56,159 nt of DNA from Prorocentrum cordatum (lineage: Eukaryota). A program made the position numbers and the translations under genes. Positions 4,342 to 12,492 of the stretch are shown here, in pieces. Where the stretch lies: positions 62,001-118,159 of the forward strand of contig CAUYUJ010000108.1 of the NCBI GenBank assembly GCA_963575745.1. The letters are read 5' to 3'. The notes below the pieces were generated by a model. It was given only the letters and a program-made list of their open reading frames with translations. It did not search any database and was not told the origin of the DNA. How positions within the stretch are numbered: position 1 is the first letter of the stretch; each line of letters opens with the position of its first letter.

Positions 4342-5106
4342 GACCAGTGCAAACCCAAGAGTCATCAACGATGTTGGAATAAACCCTCCCTCCAAGCTGC
4401 CTCTTCGTAGGCCCCGACAACGGTTCATTTCCACAGAGGGAACTGCCTCGTTGGAAGACAACCGTTGGAAAGACCCTGAAGTATGCCAAAACATTGTTCT
4501 CGGGATTCCAACGCCACGGATCAACCTGATTGTTGCGTCTTGACAATCCGGAACCGTTTCAGAACGCCATTATTGGGACTTCAGCGCCGTGCATCAACGT
4601 AGCTGTTGCACCCTCATGGTCCTGAATCCTTCCAAAACGCTATGTTTGGTACGTTGATCATGGGAAGCCGTGAAACTCTTGCACATTGTTAAAACGAATG
4701 CGCGCGGCGCCAAGGCGAGAGCCACATTTTGAAAACGGGTCGCCCTCAATCCGTGAAGCTCTTGTGAATTGTTAAACCGGTTGTGCGCGACGCTAAGGCG
4801 AGAGCCACATTTTGAAAACGGGTCGCCCTCGACCCGTGAAACTATTGCAAATAAAAAGCACGTGTGCGCAGAGGAAAGGTGAGAGCCACATTTTGAAAAC
4901 GGGTCGCCCTCAATTTGCATTAAGAAAACGAATGTGCGCGGCGCTAAGGCGAGAGCCACATGTTGAAAACGACCCGCCCTCCATCTGTGGAGCTGCTGTT
5001 CAGTGTTAAACTTCGGTGCCATAAATGATGAAGAAGTCTCAGGCGAAACGCCCGGCCCGCACTAAAAACTGGCCTCGGGGTGCGACAGGGAGAAGTTATT
5101 TCTAAG
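4342..5106 (+). repeat. Dispersed repeat family R1, copy B (full length)
   Basis: Starts GACCAGTGCAAACCCAAG directly after a (GAG)n tract; ~83-bp internal tandem units; ends GGGGTGCGACAGGGAGAAGTTATTTCTAAG. Confidence 0.85.
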
Positions 5107-6094
5107 GAAAAGGCATGGACGAGGAGGAGGAGGAGGTGGAGGAGGAGGAGGAGGAGGAGCGAGGAGCGAGGAGCGAGGAGCGAGCAGCGAGGAGCGAGGA
5201 GGGAGGAGCGAAGAGGGAGGAGCGAGGAGGAGGAGAAGGAGGAGGAGGAGGAGGCGGAGGTGGCGGAGGAGGAGAAGAAAGAGGAGAAGAAAGAGGAGGA
5301 GAAAGAGGAGGAGGAGCGAGGAGGAGCGAAGGGAGGAGGAGGAGGAGGGGGAGAAGGAAGATGATGATGATGATGATGATGAGGAGGAGGAGGAGGAGGA
5401 GGAGGAGGAGGAGGAGGAGGAGGAGGAGGAGGGAGGAGGAGGAGGAGGAGGAGACTGACTGACTGACTAGCTCATGGAATCCCTCGTCAGCTTAGCCTCG
5501 ACGCGACAAAAAATTCAGCAAAGCTTGGATTCTGAAGGGCGAAGCCTTAATCCCGCCGTTTTTAAAAGTGAGAGCCGTGCACACGTCGTGGCACTGGCAC
5601 CCACATCCAGGGGTAAAGGAACCAACGCGGTGGAGCCACCAGGGCCAGAACCACCTTGCTGGCCCCCCCGTCCCCCTCGATCAGGCACCACTGCCTGGCG
5701 CGCCGCCCCATGAGGAGGCACCCCCCCGCCCAGAGGCATTCGGCCTCGATGGGGGGCCTCCGAGGGGGCTGAGACCTACCTTTCCCACTGAAGCCCCTAC
5801 CGCGCCCACGAGGCGCCTGTCGAGGGATAGTTAACGTCGGGATAGAAAGAGGACGGGGAGGGGGTCTCGGCGGGAGATGGCCTGCAGCCTGTAAGGCCCT
5901 AAATCTCTCGCGCCGACGCCAATCGAATCCCGTCGGACCCGCCAAAAAAATCTGGGCCGCGGGCGTCACCAACTCGGAACCCGGGTTCCTCACTGAAAAG
6001 ATGCACTGGCCAGGCCCACGATACCCAACCTCTTCGCCGTTATCGGCCTGACTCCCCGATGTAGATAGACGTGGGCCAGCCGTCGGCGAAGCGC

Positions 6095-6831
6095 TCAGAT
6101 CTCGTTGATCATCCTCGAGAGCTGGCGGTGCAGCGGGCCTGGAGGGGCTGCACCTGGCTTGTGGATCGCCTTCATGTCTGCCATGGCTTCGGCCAGCAGC
6201 ATTGACAGCTTCGGGCCGTTCGCGTGAGAAAGCTCCACTGCGTGCGTGATCATCCCCTTGTCGGTGCCCTTCGCGTCCTCCTGCATGTCGTCGCTGCTGC
6301 TCTTGCCCTTGCCCTTGCTCGGCTTGCCCCTGCGTGGCTTCCAACGGAAGCATGGTGCCAGGGCCGCCGCCTGCTGGGGAGTGAAGCGCATGATCACGTC
6401 CTTCCACAGGCTCGCAAAGCCATCGGTCAGCTCCTGCTTGGTAAGGTTGCCCTGCGTGCCCCACCACTTCACCGACGCTGCGAAGACCGCCACGTGCGGC
6501 GGCCCCTGCTCTCGTAGTCGACCTGCTCCCCGTTTTTGGCCTTCTCGCGCAGGGCGGTGGACTGCGCGTCGTGCGCCTTGCCCGTCGCCTCTTGCTGCTC
6601 GGACAGGCCGCCCTTCTTCGCCTCGAACTTTTTGAACACGACGGCGGCCAACTCTTGGATCTCGCGGGAATCCGCTCATACGAGGCGCCCCATCGTCTTC
6701 ACTGTCTCCTTCAAGCTCTTGGTGCCGCCGTTGCCCCTGTCGTCGTCGCTGCGCCCTTTCTTGTGTGGGGGAGCGCCATTCGTCTCTGCCGTCGGGAGCG
6801 CCAGCCAAGGCGGGGTGCCCTCCAGGGTCAT
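6095..6831 (-). pseudogene. Second (3') ORF of the LINE, ~245 aa, unknown function, overlapping the pol frame
   Basis: ATG at 6831 reads MTLEGTPPW...KTMGRLV*ADSREIQELAAVVFKKFEAK...DYESRG, then a 1-nt frameshift at ~6503-6506, then PPHVAVFAASVKWW...GAAPPGPLHRQLSRMINEI*. This composite looks globular/helical, whereas the pol frame over 6831-6505 is low-complexity. Confidence 0.65.
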
Positions 6832-9800
6832 ACTGCCGCTGACGCCGACGATCCGACAGAGGGCGAGGTCGCTGAGGAAGCACCGTGCGTGGCAGATGCT
6901 GAACCAGATGGCTACAGAGATGATCCAGATCGGCGTGTTCGACCCCACAAAGTCTGCAAGCGAGGCTATCAGGAGGAACCGGAGTGTGGAACTTCCGAGC
7001 CCCATCAGGTCGACAAAATCCCCGAACCAGCGAGCGAGCAAGATGACGTCCAGCCACCACTCGAGAGCTGAGAACCGTACGGCAAACCACACACACGTTA
7101 GTAGGTGACATAACGTGTCCAGCATTACGGACATGATGTTTAGCACGAAGATGGTTAAGTAGATCCCGTTTCGTACGAAAGACCATCTCGCACCTACTGC
7201 CGTCCTCCACCACCCACTCACACTGCCATTCACGTGGGACCTCAGGGACTGGTGGAGGAACCTCTCGTGGGGGCTGGTAGCCTGGCGGAGGAACTTGCGC
7301 TCGGACCTGGGCCGACCGAATCACTGAGAAATCTATCTTGACGAAGTCTAGGGCAACCTCAGGGTCCACGAACCTGCAGGGGAACTCGGAGAGCTCTTCC
7401 ATCACCATGGCCTCCCCGCCCAAGATCTTCCAGGCCTCCCGAAAGTCCTCCTGGAGACGACGAGCCCACGGAGACGCGTGCTTTGTCAGTCGATCAGCGA
7501 CCGCAGGCCTGTAACGGTCAAACTCCAGTGTCGGCAAACGACCGAACAGTGCGCGCAGGAGCTGCTGGTGACTATCAGGAAAACGTGCCATCTGCTGGTG
7601 CCAGCTCAGGCGCCGCACGAGCAGCTCTCTTGCACTCGGCGCCAATTTCCAATACTGAAGCACTTGGGCATTCGACCAGGTCGTCGTATGTGCGCCCTCA
7701 TGCGAAGTACCCCGTCCCTGCAAGGGCACCCGACACAATCGGGCAAGATGAGCGTCCAGGTCCTTATAATGTTGGGGGGTCACCATCATCGCCTACAGCC
7801 CACTTAATAACGCATTCTGGACCAGCCCAATAAGAATAATACGAGTCCATCTCCAGGGGCACTTGAGGGGCCAGAAACCTCCCATGGAGTAGAACCCTGA
7901 CGACGCCGCCTCTTTACGACGAACAACTTCTGGCCCAGTAGTCCCCGAGAGAGAGACGTAAGGCCCAAGGTGCCGCGTAGATTCATGCAATTCACCTCCA
8001 AGAATGCGAACGGCGTGATGGCGAAGCCAACGTTTGACCTGAATGCCTCCTACTCCCGAGACGTGAAACAGCGAAACCTGTTTGCTGCGGTTGGCCCCGA
8101 ATCCCACCTCCTCCAACTCCTCCTCCAGAGTCTCATCCGACATGCGCATCCACTTCAGGAACTCCGAGATCCTCTGGAAACGAGCAGCAACCATGAAATT
8201 CCAAATGCCATCAGCATATTTAAAGAGGCTCAAGTTGGCACGCATTTCCTTCCATTCTGCTATAAACGCACGTGACGTACTGTGGGCCTCTCGATACTTC
8301 CAGGAGAAAGCCGGCCTGCTAAACGTGCCCCTTGAACAGCGTGACCACGAAGGGGTCCCCCATGGTGCCTCCCTCACCAGGTTGGATCCACAAGGGGGGT
8401 CCTTCAGATGTGGGCAGGCTGATGCATGACTCATGATATCTTTGCTGCGCGAGCGGCACGTCCAGCTCATTGGCGACGTGCATGTCTACCGTAGCATCCA
8501 GCTCCTCATGAGAACCTGACGCGAACGCGTTGCTCATGTCCTTCAGACTGGCCGAGAACGTGTGGTACGAATGCCGCAGGCGCCACGCCACCACCTGAGC
8601 CGCCATAATCGCTCCCTCCCGTCGCCGATGTTTGATGAAGCCGTAGTCACCCACGTCCGCTGGCACCTTCAGCATATCTGCGTAGAAACACTTCCCGATG
8701 GGGTCGAGGACATGCACCACCCGCTTGCCCTTGACGCCTGGCGCGCCACTCTTCCGCAATCCGACCGCCGTGCTGTGATGCCAGTGGCTGGGGGTCCGTG
8801 AGGCTCGGCGTATCATACGAAAACCCCCCAGCATCGCCTCCGTAAAGCTCGCCATGTCAGGAATGCCTGCATCAGCCCCCGCACCCCAGCGTCCCCGTAC
8901 GTATCGCTTCTCGGGGTGGAATCAGAACTGCCACAGCTCCACTGGAGGGGAACGATCAGGTACTGCCCGACGTCGTCCTGCACGTTGTACCGCCCGCGAG
9001 GCCCGCCTGATGTCCGCTCGAGCCCGTTCCATCTCAACGGTCAGGTCAGGCAGCGCATCCGTCGACTCGATCAGCACTGGAGTTGCCGCCTCCGTAGCCG
9101 ACATGCCACCCTCCTTGCCTGCCTGACGCCATGCCGTAAGCCACTCCTCCCGCGTAGGTTGAGCCACCCGTGCCGCGCGTCCGTCCCGCTTCTTCGGTCC
9201 AAACCGACACCTTCCTGCTTCTCGAGAAAGACGCATGGCCAGCGCCAGTTTGCGGGGTCTCCAGGCTGTCTCGATCTCTTCTTCCATGTATCGCTTCCTC
9301 GCTGCTCGTTCTTGTCGTCGATGATGATGTAGGCGGTGAGCCACCGCCCGCAGCTGCTCCTGAATCTCCTCTAGCCTCGCCGTCGTCTCTGGTGTAGACG
9401 TTGAGCCATCCTCCGCCGCCGTCATCCTCCGATGCGTTGCCCCCGTCGGTCGGTACCCTCTGCCCCCCGATGGCCCGACGGGCAGGGGGGGTGAGCAGTG
9501 CGTGCCGACGGGGGCCGTCGTGCCTGTCGCCACCCCAGCCAGTGCCTCCCGAAGTGCCGCCCGCCGACGGAGAAGGTCGCGTCGGAGTTCTGCATTTCCT
9601 CGCTGCTGAGGCGGCCGTCCTGGTCGAAACATCTGTTGTCCCGCCTCAATGAGCACCCGATTCATGTAATCAAAGAAGGAGTCGGGTACACCGCACCGAA
9701 GCATATCCGTCCACTGCGGGTCCTCCTGAGACAGTCGGTCCTCGACCAGCCGTAGGAAATCGCGCTTCAAGTCGCCCTCGCCACGCAGCGCGTCCATGAT

Positions 9801-10778
9801 TTTGTCCCTGTCCCACTCCAGCTTCGGGGCCCGCTGGATCTGCTCCGAGAAACGTGGGAGGTGGACCTGCAGCATGATCGGAATATGATCCTGCGGCGGC
9901 GGGCCCCTAAAAGCCTGTAGTTGCGCCCCCAGTCCTCTGAGAGTGTGACACTTCTGAATTGCGTCCGCCATCCCGAAGGGGAAGAACACGTAGTCGATCA
10001 TCGAGCTCCCGCCCTTCGTGCCGAAGTACGTGGGGCAGACTCCATATCTCGCATTCGCCGCCAGCAAGTGGTGCTTTGCCGCCTATATCCGAAGGGTTTC
10101 ACCTGCTCCGTACCGTCGTGCTTCTCGTGTCGCTGCCTCCTTTGCCACCACCCCATCGTCGACGTACTGCCACTTCGTGGACTGACGGCTGAGACCGATG
10201 CCGTCATTCGCGTCCGTGAACACGATGGGGCAGCAGCGCACAGGCAGGCTGTTCAGCACCTCATCCAGCCACTTGCCGAGAATACGCGTCGTCTCCAGGT
10301 AGTGGGGGACCTCAGCTGACCACCTCGGCTGGGGCGGGAAGTAGAGCACCACTAGACAGAAGTCTTGGCAACTGCGCTTCACTCTTACTGCTAATGCACG
10401 TCCTCCCGCCCCTGTCGGACTCGCCCACACCCGAACCAGATCGCCAAGCCGATAGGCCCGATGAAAAATCACTGCACAACCAGTACTACTATTAGTGTAA
10501 TATCCAGGACTGAATTCGCTTTCGATGACCAACTGCCCTTGAACTCGGCGCTGCAGGGGTTCCTCCGCTTTGCGGTCACATGCCTGCGTCCCCCCCAGCA
10601 GGACAAAGTCGAACGACCTGCACGCCAAGACAATCTCCTCGAGCCGATCCCCGCGGGCGCTCTGAGGGTTCCAGCCGAGCACTTTCGTACTGCCCAGCCA
10701 CGGCTCGCATGCGCAGAGGCAGAAAGCGAGGAAGCCCCCAGCTGTGGTTGCTGCGAAAAAAGTGTGGCCTGCTGCCAT
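6832..10778 (-). pseudogene. LINE pol: APE endonuclease, reverse transcriptase and three C-terminal zinc fingers (disrupted)
   Basis: APE motifs: GWNPQS, LLGGTQ, YFPP, VFTDAND, MIDYVFF, QDHIPI. RT motifs: PSHWHHSTAVGLRK, YGFIKHRRREGAI, DMSNAFAS, GGTMGDP, YADG (YADD variant), RHLGPYV. Zinc fingers: CEW..CEM..HLRAKH, CVVC..H..C, CRLC..HLVQH. In-frame stops at 10083-85 (TAG), 8922-24 (TGA) and 7793-95 (TAG); +1 frameshift in a G-run at ~8328-8331. The frame stays open past 6832, so the true 3' end is uncertain. Confidence 0.9.
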
Positions 10779-10807
10779 GTGAATCGCTCGAGCAACCGTG
10801 GCAGCTC

Positions 10808-11035
10808 GGAGGAGGAGGAGGAGGAGGAGGAGGAGGAGGAGGAGGAGGAGGAGGAGGAGGAGGAGGAGGAGGAGGAGGAGGAGGAGGAGCAGGAGGAGGA
10901 GGAGGGAGGTGGAGGGAGGAGGAGGAGAAGGAGGAGAGAGGAGGAGGGAGGAGGAGGAGGAGGAGGAGGAGGAGGAGGAGGAGGAGGAGGAGGAGGAGGA
11001 GGAGGAGGAGGAGGAGGAGGAGGAGGAGGAGGGGC
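10808..11035. repeat. (GAG)n microsatellite, 5' flank of the LINE
   Basis: Directly visible. Confidence 0.95.
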
Positions 11036-12492
11036 AGGAAGAACCGCAGGGAACACACGATCCACCGTGCGGTGCTCCCGAGCTCTAGCCAGGCCGATCG
11101 CACGCAACCTCCCCCTCCGTCCGCCGGGCCCGAGGCAAAAACACGACCCCAGACCCGGGCAGAGAGGCAGGGCTGGACCGGACCCAAACGCCGCAGATGC
11201 GGGCAAGCGTGAGGGGGCGGGCGCGGGGCGGCTCCCGGGGTGGGTCGCGGGGTGGGTCGCGGGGTGGGTCGCGGGTGGGTCGCGGGTGGGTCGCGTGGGG
11301 GACGACAATGTACATCTGCAGGAGGAGGAGGAGGAGGAGGAGGAGGAGGAGGAGGAGGAGGAGGAGGGAGGAGGAGGAGGGAGGAGGAGGCGCGAGCCAC
11401 CGCATCTCTCCACAACTCCGGCCGCGGAGCGCACGCGGCCTCCAGGCAACCCGCCGGGCCCGACGCAGCCAAGCCGAACACCTGGGCAGCTTTGCTGGAC
11501 TTCGGCCCTGTTCTGTTCTGCCTTTTGGGGGGGAGGTGCAGGAAAGCAGGCACGGCAAAACGAACAACAAAACGAAGACAAGACGGAAAACAACGTTCAG
11601 GTCCAGCCCTGCAGAGAGGCACGTGCGCGCGTCACCTGAACGGCATTTTCGGAGTTTTTCGTTTTCGTTCTGTTTTCGTTTTCCCTCGTTTCGTCTTCAA
11701 CCCGCCCGCTGCCGCAAAACGAAGTCGAAACGAAAACGGCCCACGAAATCGCTAAAACACCGTTTGGGTCCAGCCCTGGAGAGGCACGTGCACGCGTCAC
11801 AAAAAAAATCGGTGCGGGAACCGGATCACGGCGTCGGTGGCGGAGACCGTGAAATCCTGGCGACTGCATTTTTTCGAGCCGGACGTCTTCGCCCCGTTTC
11901 GGGCCCCAGGACCCTCCCAGATCGATCCGGCTCGAAAGCTGGCGCAGAACGAGGGGGTCTGGGGCTCTGGGCGTGGTCTTTTGCGATGTTGCATTTTTTC
12001 GCGCCGTCGGATCTCAAGGAACCTATCATGTGCAACCGGCCCACTTCGAGCACCGCGTGCTTCTCCCTGCGTGGTCCCCGCGTTCGCGCACTGGTGAGCA
12101 CCTCGCGTGGCAGGCGCTCATCCCCCTGCCCCCTCAATCTGGGCATGCCCGGGTCCTCGTGGGTCAGGGAGGTGTTGACCGATGAAGCCGAGGCAGCACG
12201 CGCGACCCCACCAATGCGATCGCACGCTGTCGGGTGTAGGATGAGCGTGAGACGACGTTTCTTGACGAGGTGCGCGTGCGCCCGCGCCGTGTGCATCCGC
12301 CCTTTCGCCTCTACTACCAGCCAATTCACGCCGCTAGCGTCTTCGCGACCAAATGCGCCCCTGTCGATACCCTTTTGGCCCATCAATGCCATCATCGCCG
12401 TCACCCGGCATCATCGCGCCGTCCACCGTCACAGCTGCCCGCCACCCGCCATCTGGCCGACTCCGGGAATAGAAAAAAACGGCATACACATG

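What the first reader, a model, noticed from the sequence alone, without database searches (positions are those of the whole stretch)
5453..10807. LINE with inverted gene order: pol first, then an unknown ORF downstream
Seen: the pol ATG lies only ~30 nt from the 5' junction, with no ORF1 ahead of it. After APE-RT-three zinc fingers, a second ORF starts at 6831 (~245 aa once one TGA and one frameshift are repaired). It looks helical, with motifs REIQELAAVVF, PPHVAVF and a C-terminal GAAPPGPLHRQL. Known: canonical APE-type LINEs place the RNA-chaperone ORF1 5' of pol. Inference: the 3' ORF could be a displaced ORF1 analogue or a lineage-specific accessory protein. I see no DNA methyltransferase motifs, so it is not the DNMT cargo described for some Symbiodiniaceae retrotransposons.
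Basis: partly seen in the sequence, partly recalled or inferred. Interest (0 to 1): 0.8.

Follow-up and report, generated by a model that had tools for sequence, protein, structure and literature searches.

The report
Dinoflagellate LINE with a downstream gene
A dead copy of a dinoflagellate jumping gene encodes its copying enzyme first and then a second, conserved protein of unknown fold, the reverse of the usual order in such elements.

Summary
Window 5454-10807 (minus strand, 5354 bp) is one decayed non-LTR retrotransposon sitting inside a (GGA)n microsatellite. Its pol ATG (10778) lies 29 nt from the 5' junction. Pol reads APE endonuclease, RT, then three C2H2 fingers.

A 245-codon ORF follows (6831-6098). 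It is broken only by one TGA (6676-6678) and a copy-specific 1-nt deletion near 6502. It is a real gene:
- Nine related proteins were found, seven named Prorocentrum cordatum. They read straight through both breaks and share its start and stop.
- GC3 is 0.85-0.87 against 0.59-0.72 in pol.
- Neutral decay to the observed divergence would give about 4.5 stops.
- Five paralogues carry pol zinc-finger sequence directly upstream.

A distant relative on a metagenome contig (L001) has a 232-codon ORF in the same +1 frame. Its ATG lies exactly 67 nt after the last finger histidine, as in the window. No sequence similarity between the two ORFs is detectable.

Pfam, PDB profiles, AlphaFold and the ESM Atlas give the protein no name. 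I read it as an element-encoded accessory protein, most likely an ORF1p-like RNP partner; that part is inference. Whether longer copies carry a 5' ORF1 could not be tested. Six literature searches found no description of this layout.

The parts
10808..11032 (.). (GGA)n/(TCC)n microsatellite, 5' flank of the insertion
   Evidence: TRF: period 3, 73.7 copies; sequence
10779..10807 (-). 29-nt 5' leader between the junction and the pol ATG; no ORF1
9873..10778 (-). Pol N-terminus with the APE-type endonuclease domain, from ATG 10778. Motifs: WNP 10682-10659, DAN 10226-10200, IDY 10004-9981, DH 9896-9873. In-frame TAG at 10085-10083.
   Evidence: AF2 model of 10086-10778, pLDDT 74.9. Foldseek top hits ExoIII Mth0212, TRAS1 EN and L1 EN, E 1.6e-5 to 6e-5. 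Motif coordinates.
8724..9872 (-). Linker between APE and RT. Holds in-frame TGA 8924-8922 and a ~70-nt high-copy segment at 9439-9512.
7796..8723 (-). Reverse transcriptase core. Motifs: RRRE 8639-8610, DMSNAFAS 8546-8517, YADG 8224-8204. A 1-nt insertion near 8332 shifts frame 1 to frame 2. TAG at 7795-7793.
   Evidence: Family profile A5 hits the R2 RT at E=5.1e-5. Pfam RVT_1 matches 2 of 19 relatives at E<=0.01. Indel.
6896..7792 (-). RT C-terminal (thumb-like) region and three C2H2 zinc fingers at 7222-7133, 7093-7013 and 6958-6896
   Evidence: 750 relatives at E<=1e-3. C2H2 PDB hit at E=1.8e-5. Coordinates.
6098..6831 (-). Downstream ORF, 245 codons, in the +1 frame of pol. Its ATG at 6831 lies 67 nt after the first base of the last finger His codon (6898). 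Broken by TGA 6678-6676 and a 1-nt deletion near 6502. Stop at TGA 6097-6095.
5469..6094 (-). 3' UTR. No codon periodicity. Shared with other copies.
   Evidence: GC by codon position 0.62-0.64 in all three phases. X1 depth 2.7-14.9 over 5430-6153. No Rfam match. Last 167 nt fold no better than shuffles, z=-0.05.
5454..5468 (-). 3' tail of (AGTC) repeats, about 4 units, running into the microsatellite; no poly(A)
   Evidence: sequence
5117..5453 (.). (GGA)n/(TCC)n microsatellite, 3' flank of the insertion
   Evidence: TRF: period 3, 108 copies

Best explanation
This is a dead, apparently full-length copy of a multi-copy APE-type LINE of a dinoflagellate; the relatives are named Prorocentrum cordatum. 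It inserted into a (GGA)n microsatellite.

The family is bicistronic in an unusual order. A ~1300-codon pol (APE, RT, three C2H2 fingers) starts 29 nt from the 5' end. A ~245-codon ORF follows in the +1 frame, starting 67 nt after the last finger histidine.

Shown:
- The downstream ORF is a protein-coding part of the element.
- It was kept by selection while the family diversified.
- An ORF of the same size, frame and start position exists in a distantly related element.

Inferred (about 35-40% for this particular role): the protein is the element's non-enzymatic partner. It would be a mildly basic, mainly helical protein that binds the element's RNA or RNP, doing the job of ORF1p in other LINEs. 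It would be made from its own conserved AUG. That could happen by re-initiation or coupling after pol on the full-length RNA, or from a shorter 3'-coterminal mRNA, for example one made by spliced-leader trans-splicing.

The confidence given (0.55) is for the statement as a whole. The shown parts alone I would put near 0.85-0.9.
For: LINE identity.
- APE fold of the window's N-terminus: model pLDDT 74.9; Foldseek top hits ExoIII, TRAS1 EN and L1 EN.
- Family profile against the PDB: R2 RT E=5.1e-5, L1 EN E=0.09 over nearly the whole domain, C2H2 E=1.8e-5.
- The tail is a simple repeat, not poly(A).
- The family is multi-copy: 210 contigs of run X1 were laid, split 22/39/47/102 across the identity bands 99+/95-99/90-95/under 90.

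Pol starts at the 5' end.
- The ATG is 29 nt from the junction.
- In the five full-length relatives I read that begin with Met (P0016, P0034, P0086, P0115, P0128), the APE begins within about 10-45 residues of the start.
- The distance from ATG 10778 to the finger end, about 1300 codons, matches the ~1250-aa relatives.

The downstream ORF is real.
- There are 9 related proteins.
- Leu stands at the window's TGA in 8 of 8 relatives covering that position.
- The Met is conserved in 5 of 5 sequences (the window and 4 relatives) read there in that frame.
- The stop falls in the same column in 7 of 7 sequences (the window and 6 relatives) that reach the C-terminus.
- GC3 is 0.85-0.87 with GC2 0.46-0.48.
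- Neutral mutation of the window's own codons to 54% identity gives a mean of 4.55 stops in 239 codons, with P(0)=0.0025. Observed replacements are more conservative than simulated: mean BLOSUM62 -0.09 to -0.15 (+0.07 for the 95-aa P0002; -0.21 for P0001, whose alignment includes its out-of-frame N-terminus) against -0.56, sd 0.14.

Linkage to pol.
- The N-termini of P0003, P0152, P0153 and P0155 are the frame-0 reading of the window's finger region, and that of P0001 is its frame-1 reading.
- P0155 also holds upstream pol segments.
- An X1 contig with 21 differences bridges 6702-7185.

The layout is shared across the clade.
- L001 has a 331-codon stop-to-stop ORF in the +1 frame. Its ATG is 67 nt after the last His codon, the same distance as in the window. 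It runs 232 codons from that ATG, with GC3 0.63 against 0.50-0.54 in pol.
- Of 83 relatives that reach the last finger, 32 have predicted tails of 60-570 aa. Many of those tails are poor in residues whose codons start with A or T. The window's pol frame gives the same composition when read through its downstream ORF.

Charge. The pI is 9.3-10.1 in P0001, P0003 and the L001 ORF.
Against: - Nothing links the protein to RNA binding or to any ORF1 type. Pfam has no hit at E<0.03. The PDB profile's best hit is E=0.23. The AF2 model has pLDDT 39. The ESM Atlas returned nothing usable.
- P0011 has pI 6.5.
- The two downstream ORFs, window and L001, show no significant similarity: hhalign E=0.5, probability 0.1; BLASTP and phmmer found nothing. 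The slot may be shared while the gene is not.
- In both the window and L001 the pol frame has no stop near the ORF's AUG. That argues against simple termination-reinitiation in these copies.
- The absence of stops in predicted proteins is partly an ascertainment effect. Gene models skip defects, and 5 of the 9 relatives have internal gaps.
- No paralogue DNA could be obtained, so no dN/dS was computed.
- The 5' ends of other copies were not seen.
- The window's own RT pieces match no Pfam family.
Confidence: 0.55

Rival explanations
1. The downstream ORF is not a separate protein. It is a C-terminal extension of pol, reached by a +1 ribosomal frameshift, or it was in frame with pol in the active master copies.
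For: - The pol frame has no stop before the ORF in the window or in L001.
- The ORF is in the +1 frame of pol in both.
- The +1 frame is already open 163 codons upstream of the ATG in the window (P of no stop 0.014 by resampling, 0.06 by permutation). In L001 it is open for 100 codons (P 0.04-0.06).
Against: - An ATG sits at the identical position in both elements, and the Met is kept in 5 of 5 sequences (the window and 4 relatives) read there.
- Of 83 relatives that reach the last finger, 51 end within 51 aa of the last finger His. Pol therefore normally stops about where the ORF begins.
- The pol frame stays open across the ORF for a trivial reason. Its first codon position coincides with the ORF's third position, which is 87% G+C.
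- No slippery or shift site was identified.
Confidence: 0.13
2. The ORF is cargo: a host gene, or a fragment of one, picked up at the 3' end by one Prorocentrum LINE family. It is carried along without a role in retrotransposition, or with a role aimed at the host.
For: - Its GC3 (0.85-0.87) is well above that of pol (0.59-0.72), which suggests a different origin or expression level.
- Detectable relatives are limited to P. cordatum, plus one 95-aa protein filed under Pyramimonas sp. that is 88% identical to a P. cordatum copy.
- Cargo genes are known in dinoflagellate LINEs. SymbioLINE-Dnmt is an example (PMC5890265, passages read).
Against: - No stand-alone host homologue turned up. Of the 9 relatives, 5 demonstrably follow pol fingers; 3 are partial, starting at or inside the ORF; one, P0011, is a complete model with no pol sequence upstream in it.
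- The substitution pattern looks selected.
- L001, a distant family, has an ORF with the same start position, frame and size. That fits an old part of the element better than a recent capture.
- Cargo under selection would still have a role for the element.
Confidence: 0.15
3. The order is not really 'pol first'. Full-length family members have an ordinary 5' ORF1 and three ORFs in all, and this copy was truncated at its 5' end just upstream of the pol ATG.
For: - 5' truncation is the rule for LINE insertions (established knowledge).
- Depth from other copies falls to 0.7 in the 5'-most bin, 10679-10830.
- Symbiodinium LINEs do have an upstream ORF1 (PMC5890265).
Against: - Truncation would have to fall in the short gap between a hypothetical ORF1 and the pol ATG, leaving 29 nt. 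That is roughly 1-2% of positions in a 6-7 kb element (my estimate, not a computed figure).
- No ORF1-like sequence is fused ahead of the APE in the five full-length relatives I read that begin with Met.
- This rival does not touch the reality of the downstream ORF.
Confidence: 0.15
4. The 'ORF' is a chance open frame in G+C-rich DNA, stitched together by repairing two breaks.
For: - Long open frames are common here. Frame 1 is open for 378 codons over the same region, and the pol frame for 565.
Against: - Relatives at 54-90% identity read through both breaks and keep the start and stop.
- Strong three-base periodicity appears only in this frame and is absent from the 3' UTR.
- The neutral simulation gives P(0 stops)=0.0025 at 54% identity.
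Confidence: 0.02

Closest known systems
APE-type non-LTR retrotransposons (LINEs) such as L1, TRAS1/R1 and CR1
   Same: - N-terminal APE-fold endonuclease, then RT, then a C-terminal zinc-binding region.
- No LTRs.
- A simple-repeat 3' tail.
- Many diverged and broken copies.
   Different: - There is no ORF1 ahead of pol in this copy. A conserved ~245-codon ORF lies after pol instead.
- The C-terminal zinc region is three C2H2 fingers. I recall L1 having a single CCHC motif there; no call checked this.
- Pfam's RVT_1 and Exo_endo_phos models stay below their gathering scores.
SymbioLINE-Dnmt of Symbiodiniaceae (de Mendoza et al. 2018, PMC5890265; passages read, supplements not seen)
   Same: - Dinoflagellate LINEs with an extra, selected gene besides pol.
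- No poly(A) tail.
- Conserved UTRs.
   Different: - There the extra gene is a DNMT in ORF1, upstream of the RT ORF.
- Here the extra gene is downstream, has no DNMT or other Pfam domain, and no upstream ORF exists in this copy.
LINE ORF1 proteins (L1 ORF1p with coiled coil, RRM and CTD; CCHC-knuckle types; esterase/PHD types of CR1/L2)
   Same: - A second, non-enzymatic, element-encoded protein of a few hundred residues.
- Mildly basic: pI 9.3-10.1 in 3 of 4 sequences computed.
- Under selection together with pol.
   Different: - It lies at the opposite end of the element.
- It shows no RRM, CCHC, esterase or PHD signal.
- No confident fold was obtained.
ORF3 or env-like extra ORFs after pol in LTR retrotransposons and Penelope-like Athena elements of bdelloid rotifers (PMC5408684; abstract and passages read)
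   Same: Retroelements can carry varied accessory ORFs downstream of pol.
   Different: Those are LTR or Penelope-like elements, not LINEs. Their ORF3s are env-like proteins, GDSL esterases or DEDDy exonucleases.

Membership tests
APE-type non-LTR retrotransposon (LINE) | N-terminal endonuclease of the APE/EEP fold | tested here: met
   AF2 model of window 10086-10778, built with 10 relatives: pLDDT 74.9, pTM 0.75. Foldseek against the PDB gave 118 matches at E<=0.001. The top ones are Mth0212 ExoIII (1.6e-5), TRAS1 EN (1.9e-5) and L1 EN (3.8e-5), with TM about 0.4-0.5; the domain is cut short by the in-frame stop. The sequence profile matches L1 EN only at E=0.09. Pfam Exo_endo_phos matches 1 of 19 relatives at E<=0.01.
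APE-type non-LTR retrotransposon (LINE) | Reverse transcriptase of the non-LTR type downstream of the endonuclease | tested here: met
   The profile of 19 relatives hits the R2 retrotransposon RT at E=5.1e-5. Pfam RVT_1 matches 2 of 19 at E<=0.01, below the gathering score. The window's own RT pieces gave no Pfam hit, but they carry the family motifs RRRE, DMSNAFAS and YADG.
APE-type non-LTR retrotransposon (LINE) | No terminal repeats; 3' end with a simple-repeat or A-rich tail; target-site duplication | tested here: inconclusive
   The (AGTC)~4 tail at 5454-5468 is read directly from the sequence. A duplication cannot be delimited, because both flanks are the same (GGA)n array. No dedicated search for terminal repeats was run.
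APE-type non-LTR retrotransposon (LINE) | Dispersed multi-copy family with diverged copies | tested here: met
   210 contigs of run X1 were laid at 80% identity or more, spread over all identity bands and all 30 bins. There is no second copy in the window.
Canonical two-ORF LINE layout (ORF1 upstream of pol) | An ORF1 upstream of pol | tested here: not met
   Only 29 nt separate the microsatellite junction from the pol ATG in this copy. Other copies' 5' ends could not be examined.
Known LINE ORF1 protein types | RRM, CCHC knuckle, coiled coil with CTD, esterase or PHD domain | tested here: not met
   Pfam on P0001, P0003, P0011 and P0021: best E-value 0.038, to an unrelated family. The PDB profile search's best hit is E=0.23. 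The AF2 model has pLDDT 39.
SymbioLINE-Dnmt | C5-DNMT encoded in an ORF upstream of the RT ORF | tested here: not met
   There is no DNMT hit in any piece and no upstream ORF. The definition is taken from PMC5890265.

The most novel reading that the evidence does not exclude
A whole clade of dinoflagellate LINEs has given up the 5' ORF1. Its gag-like partner is instead encoded after pol, in the +1 frame, from an AUG fixed 67 nt behind the last zinc finger. In some families a further ORF follows.

In organisms that resolve transcripts by spliced-leader trans-splicing, the partner could be made from a short 3'-coterminal mRNA. That mRNA would still carry the RT's 3' recognition site. This would tie the layout to the heavy retroposition of spliced-leader-bearing mRNAs seen in dinoflagellate genomes.
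Probability: 0.2. Interest if true: 0.8.

Novelty: new variant of a known kind. Interest (0 to 1): 0.62.

Why it matters
LINE biology assumes that the RNA-binding partner is translated first and in excess, and pol second and rarely. An element that encodes pol first and a conserved partner last needs another way to set that ratio and to achieve cis-preference.

Dinoflagellates are a natural place to look. They have trans-splicing, huge genomes and rampant retroposition.

The downstream protein is also a new, selected, fold-unknown family. It could be expressed and tested for RNA binding. Separately, the analysis explains the odd arginine/glycine-rich 'tails' on many predicted dinoflagellate RT proteins: they are out-of-frame read-through of a G+C3-rich downstream ORF.

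Tried and rejected
- Whole genome: none is held. No family consensus, 5'-end survey or dN/dS could be made.
The organisms of the unnamed relatives remain unknown.
- Metagenome scan with P0001: 94 pattern matches, none confirmed.
- Viral-contig scans with P0156, A6 and the window's pol C-terminus: none confirmed.
- Alignments A4 and A1 were too variable for the search for related loci.
- Sequencing runs: no RNA holder was listed, so nothing can be said on expression. All laid runs were short contigs. Neither junction could be examined, and run X4 laid nothing.
- Fold of the downstream ORF: AF2 with 8 sequences gave pLDDT 39, unusable, so no fold search was made on it. The ESM Atlas gave no usable hit for P0001 or for the L001 ORF.
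- Homology between the window ORF and the L001 ORF: hhalign E=0.5; BLASTP, tblastn and phmmer found nothing.
- Rfam over 5000-11300: nothing at E<=1. The last 167 nt of the 3' end fold no better than shuffles, z=-0.05.
- Earlier findings of this scan: three look-ups, all empty.
- Literature: six searches and passages of seven papers found no LINE described with a conserved ORF after pol. 'Third ORF' hits concerned L1 ORF0 reviews, env of LTR elements, or DIRS. Subscription journals and Repbase are not covered.
Full report
WHAT IS THERE

The feature is on the minus strand. Tandem Repeats Finder places two (GGA)n arrays at 5117-5453 and 10808-11032. The unique sequence between them, 5454-10807 (5354 bp), is the element, so it inserted into one long triplet microsatellite.

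Read 5' to 3', the element has these parts:
- A 29-nt leader.
- The pol ATG at 10778.
- Pol in frame 1 down to about 8335, then in frame 2.
- At the 3' end, a 626-nt stretch without codon periodicity and about four AGTC units that run into the microsatellite.

The copy is dead. Pol has in-frame TAG 10085-10083, TGA 8924-8922 and TAG 7795-7793. It also has a 1-nt insertion near 8332, which three contigs of other copies lack. There is no second copy in the window.

IS IT A LINE?

The window's own pieces hit no Pfam model apart from weak C2H2 matches. Even full-length relatives reach RVT_1 and Exo_endo_phos only below the curated cut-offs. At E<=0.01, 2 of 19 relatives match RVT_1 and 1 of 19 matches Exo_endo_phos.

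Three further tests settle it.
1. A profile of 19 relatives matches the R2 retrotransposon RT at E=5.1e-5. It matches C2H2 fingers at 1.8e-5. It matches the L1 endonuclease at E=0.09, collinear over nearly the whole domain.
2. An AlphaFold model of the window's first 231 residues, built with 10 relatives, has pLDDT 74.9. Its best PDB neighbours are ExoIII Mth0212, the TRAS1 endonuclease and the L1 endonuclease, at E 1.6e-5 to 6e-5.
3. The family is multi-copy and diverged. In run X1, 210 contigs lay on the element across all identity bands.

The 565-residue frame holding the RT C-terminus and fingers has 750 relatives at E<=1e-3 in the representative library. So this is a large, very divergent LINE clade.

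THE DOWNSTREAM ORF IS REAL

- P0001 (named Prorocentrum cordatum, 90% identical) runs uninterrupted through the TGA and the frameshift.
- In all, nine related proteins were found. Seven are named P. cordatum. One 95-aa protein is filed under Pyramimonas sp. in EukProt; it is 88% identical to the P. cordatum copy P0153, so I suspect a stray transcript. One comes from a 589-bp ENA contig.
- Leu stands at the window's TGA in 8 of 8 relatives covering that position.
- The start Met is kept in 5 of 5 sequences (the window and 4 relatives) read there in that frame.
- The 7 sequences that reach the C-terminus, the window included, stop at the same column.
- Other copies carry an extra C behind 6502, so the frameshift is private to this copy or to a subset of copies.

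Composition gives independent support. GC at codon positions 1, 2 and 3 is 0.62/0.46/0.87 and 0.60/0.48/0.85 in the two halves of the ORF. Correctly framed pol segments have GC3 of 0.59-0.72. The 3' UTR is flat.

I could not compute dN/dS, because no paralogue DNA is available. As a substitute I mutated the window's own codons neutrally.
- At 54% amino-acid identity, the level seen against P0011, the simulation gives a mean of 4.55 stops in 239 codons, with P(0)=0.0025.
- The simulated mean BLOSUM62 score for replacements is -0.56 (sd 0.14).
- Observed values are -0.09 to -0.15 for P0011, P0003 and P0021. They are +0.07 for the 95-aa P0002 and -0.21 for P0001, whose alignment includes its out-of-frame N-terminus.
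- The stop count is biased, because gene models skip defects. Five of the nine relatives have internal gaps. The replacement score is not biased in that way.

THE ORF BELONGS TO THE ELEMENT

The N-terminal extensions of P0003, P0152, P0153 and P0155 are the frame-0 translation of the window's zinc-finger region. That of P0001 is its frame-1 translation. These loci therefore have pol fingers immediately upstream. P0155 also contains upstream pol segments. An X1 contig from a different copy, with 21 differences, bridges 6702-7185.

WHY THE POL FRAME NEVER STOPS

The pol frame runs open for 565 codons, right through the ORF. This is a by-product. The pol frame's first codon position coincides with the ORF's third position, which is 87% G+C, so T-initial stop codons are rare. 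Read that way the region gives an R/G/Q/E-rich string with 9-12% of residues whose codons start with A or T.

The same composition appears abruptly after the third finger in many long relatives, for 200-350 residues. Of 83 relatives that reach the last finger, 51 end within 51 residues of it and 32 run on for 60-570 residues. I read those tails as out-of-frame read-through of similar downstream ORFs. This is an inference from composition only.

A SECOND, DISTANT CASE

The one metagenome contig recovered, L001 (3943 bp), encodes the RT-to-finger part of a pol whose representative (P0005) is 29% identical to the window's. It has a 331-codon stop-to-stop frame in the +1 frame of pol.

One of its ATGs, at 2011, begins 67 nt after the first base of the last finger His codon (1944). 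In the window the corresponding distance, from 6898 to 6831, is also 67 nt. From that ATG the ORF runs 232 codons. Its GC3 is 0.63 against 0.50-0.54 for pol, and its pI is 9.3.

Sequence similarity to the window's ORF is not detectable. hhalign finds the collinear alignment but at E=0.5, and BLASTP and phmmer find nothing. So the slot, frame, start point and size are conserved across the clade. Whether the gene itself is homologous remains open.

WHAT THE PROTEIN IS

It is unknown by every library available here.
- Pfam: nothing.
- PDB profile: best hit E=0.23.
- AlphaFold: pLDDT 39.
- ESM Atlas: nothing usable.

It is hydrophilic and mostly predicted helical. It has an N-terminal KKGR/acidic patch and a variable K/G-rich linker. 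The pI is 9.3-10.1 in three of the four sequences computed.

I commit to an element-encoded partner protein that works with the RNA/RNP, an ORF1p analogue by role, at about 35-40%. The rivals are:
- a +1-frameshift fusion to pol;
- host-derived cargo, as the GC3 contrast might suggest;
- a 5'-truncated three-ORF element.
A chance ORF is excluded.

COMPARISON WITH WHAT IS KNOWN

Canonical LINEs place ORF1 before pol. The dinoflagellate SymbioLINE-Dnmt elements do too, with the DNMT in ORF1 (PMC5890265, passages; supplements not seen). Extra ORFs after pol are described for LTR and Penelope-like elements of rotifers (PMC5408684), not for LINEs.

Six full-text searches found no description of a LINE with a conserved post-pol ORF. 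Repbase and subscription journals were not searchable.

VERDICT

I rate this a new variant of a known kind. The main gap is the 5' end of other copies; the second gap is any evidence on how the second protein is expressed and what it does.

Noticed in passing
window 9439-9512: A ~70-nt G+C-rich stretch with short hairpins sits inside the APE-RT linker. It has far higher depth than the rest of the element: 130 against about 20 in run X1. It also occurs in two metagenome runs with unlike sequence on both sides (loose ends at 9439-9450 and 9504-9512). It looks like a separate small repeat, either inserted in this copy's lineage or shared with other elements. Rfam has no match.
   Followed up: partly
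window 6832-7320 (minus strand, frame 0); L001 1714-2010: The +1 frame of pol is already free of stops well before the downstream ORF's ATG: 163 codons in the window and 100 codons in L001. Synonymous resampling gives P of 0.014-0.06 for the window and 0.04-0.06 for L001. This could be chance, an upstream start, or room for a frameshift. It remains unexplained.
   Followed up: partly
L001 2839-3762: A third open frame of 307 codons follows the downstream ORF in the metagenome relative. It is acidic (pI 4.6) and purine-rich at codon position 1. It shares only a 22-residue motif (GSLPxTRA...SKY.K, E=7e-4) with the C-terminus of relative P0016. The window's 3' UTR has no counterpart.
   Followed up: partly
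window 10584-10604 (minus strand): The endonuclease motif reads VLLGGTQ, and Gly-Thr is invariant in all 11 aligned sequences (A7). As I recall, APE and L1 endonucleases have a metal-binding Glu in a QET-like motif at this place. That is a recalled motif. The residue mapping onto a solved structure was not checked.
   Followed up: no
window 5117-5453 and 10808-11032; L001 3790-3860: The element sits inside a (GGA)n array. The metagenome relative is followed by AGC/AGT-rich triplet repeats. Microsatellite targeting is possible but rests on one clear case.
   Followed up: no
window 6098-6831 versus 7796-10778: GC3 of the downstream ORF (0.85-0.87) is far above that of pol (0.59-0.72). The same direction is seen in L001 (0.63 against 0.50-0.54). 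This could reflect higher expression or a different origin.
   Followed up: partly
protein P0155 (relative, 1147 aa): This gene model chains pol fragments, the out-of-frame finger region and the downstream ORF. It then continues into about 520 residues of unrelated, partly proline/alanine-rich sequence. It is probably a LINE copy merged with a neighbouring host gene by the annotator.
   Followed up: no
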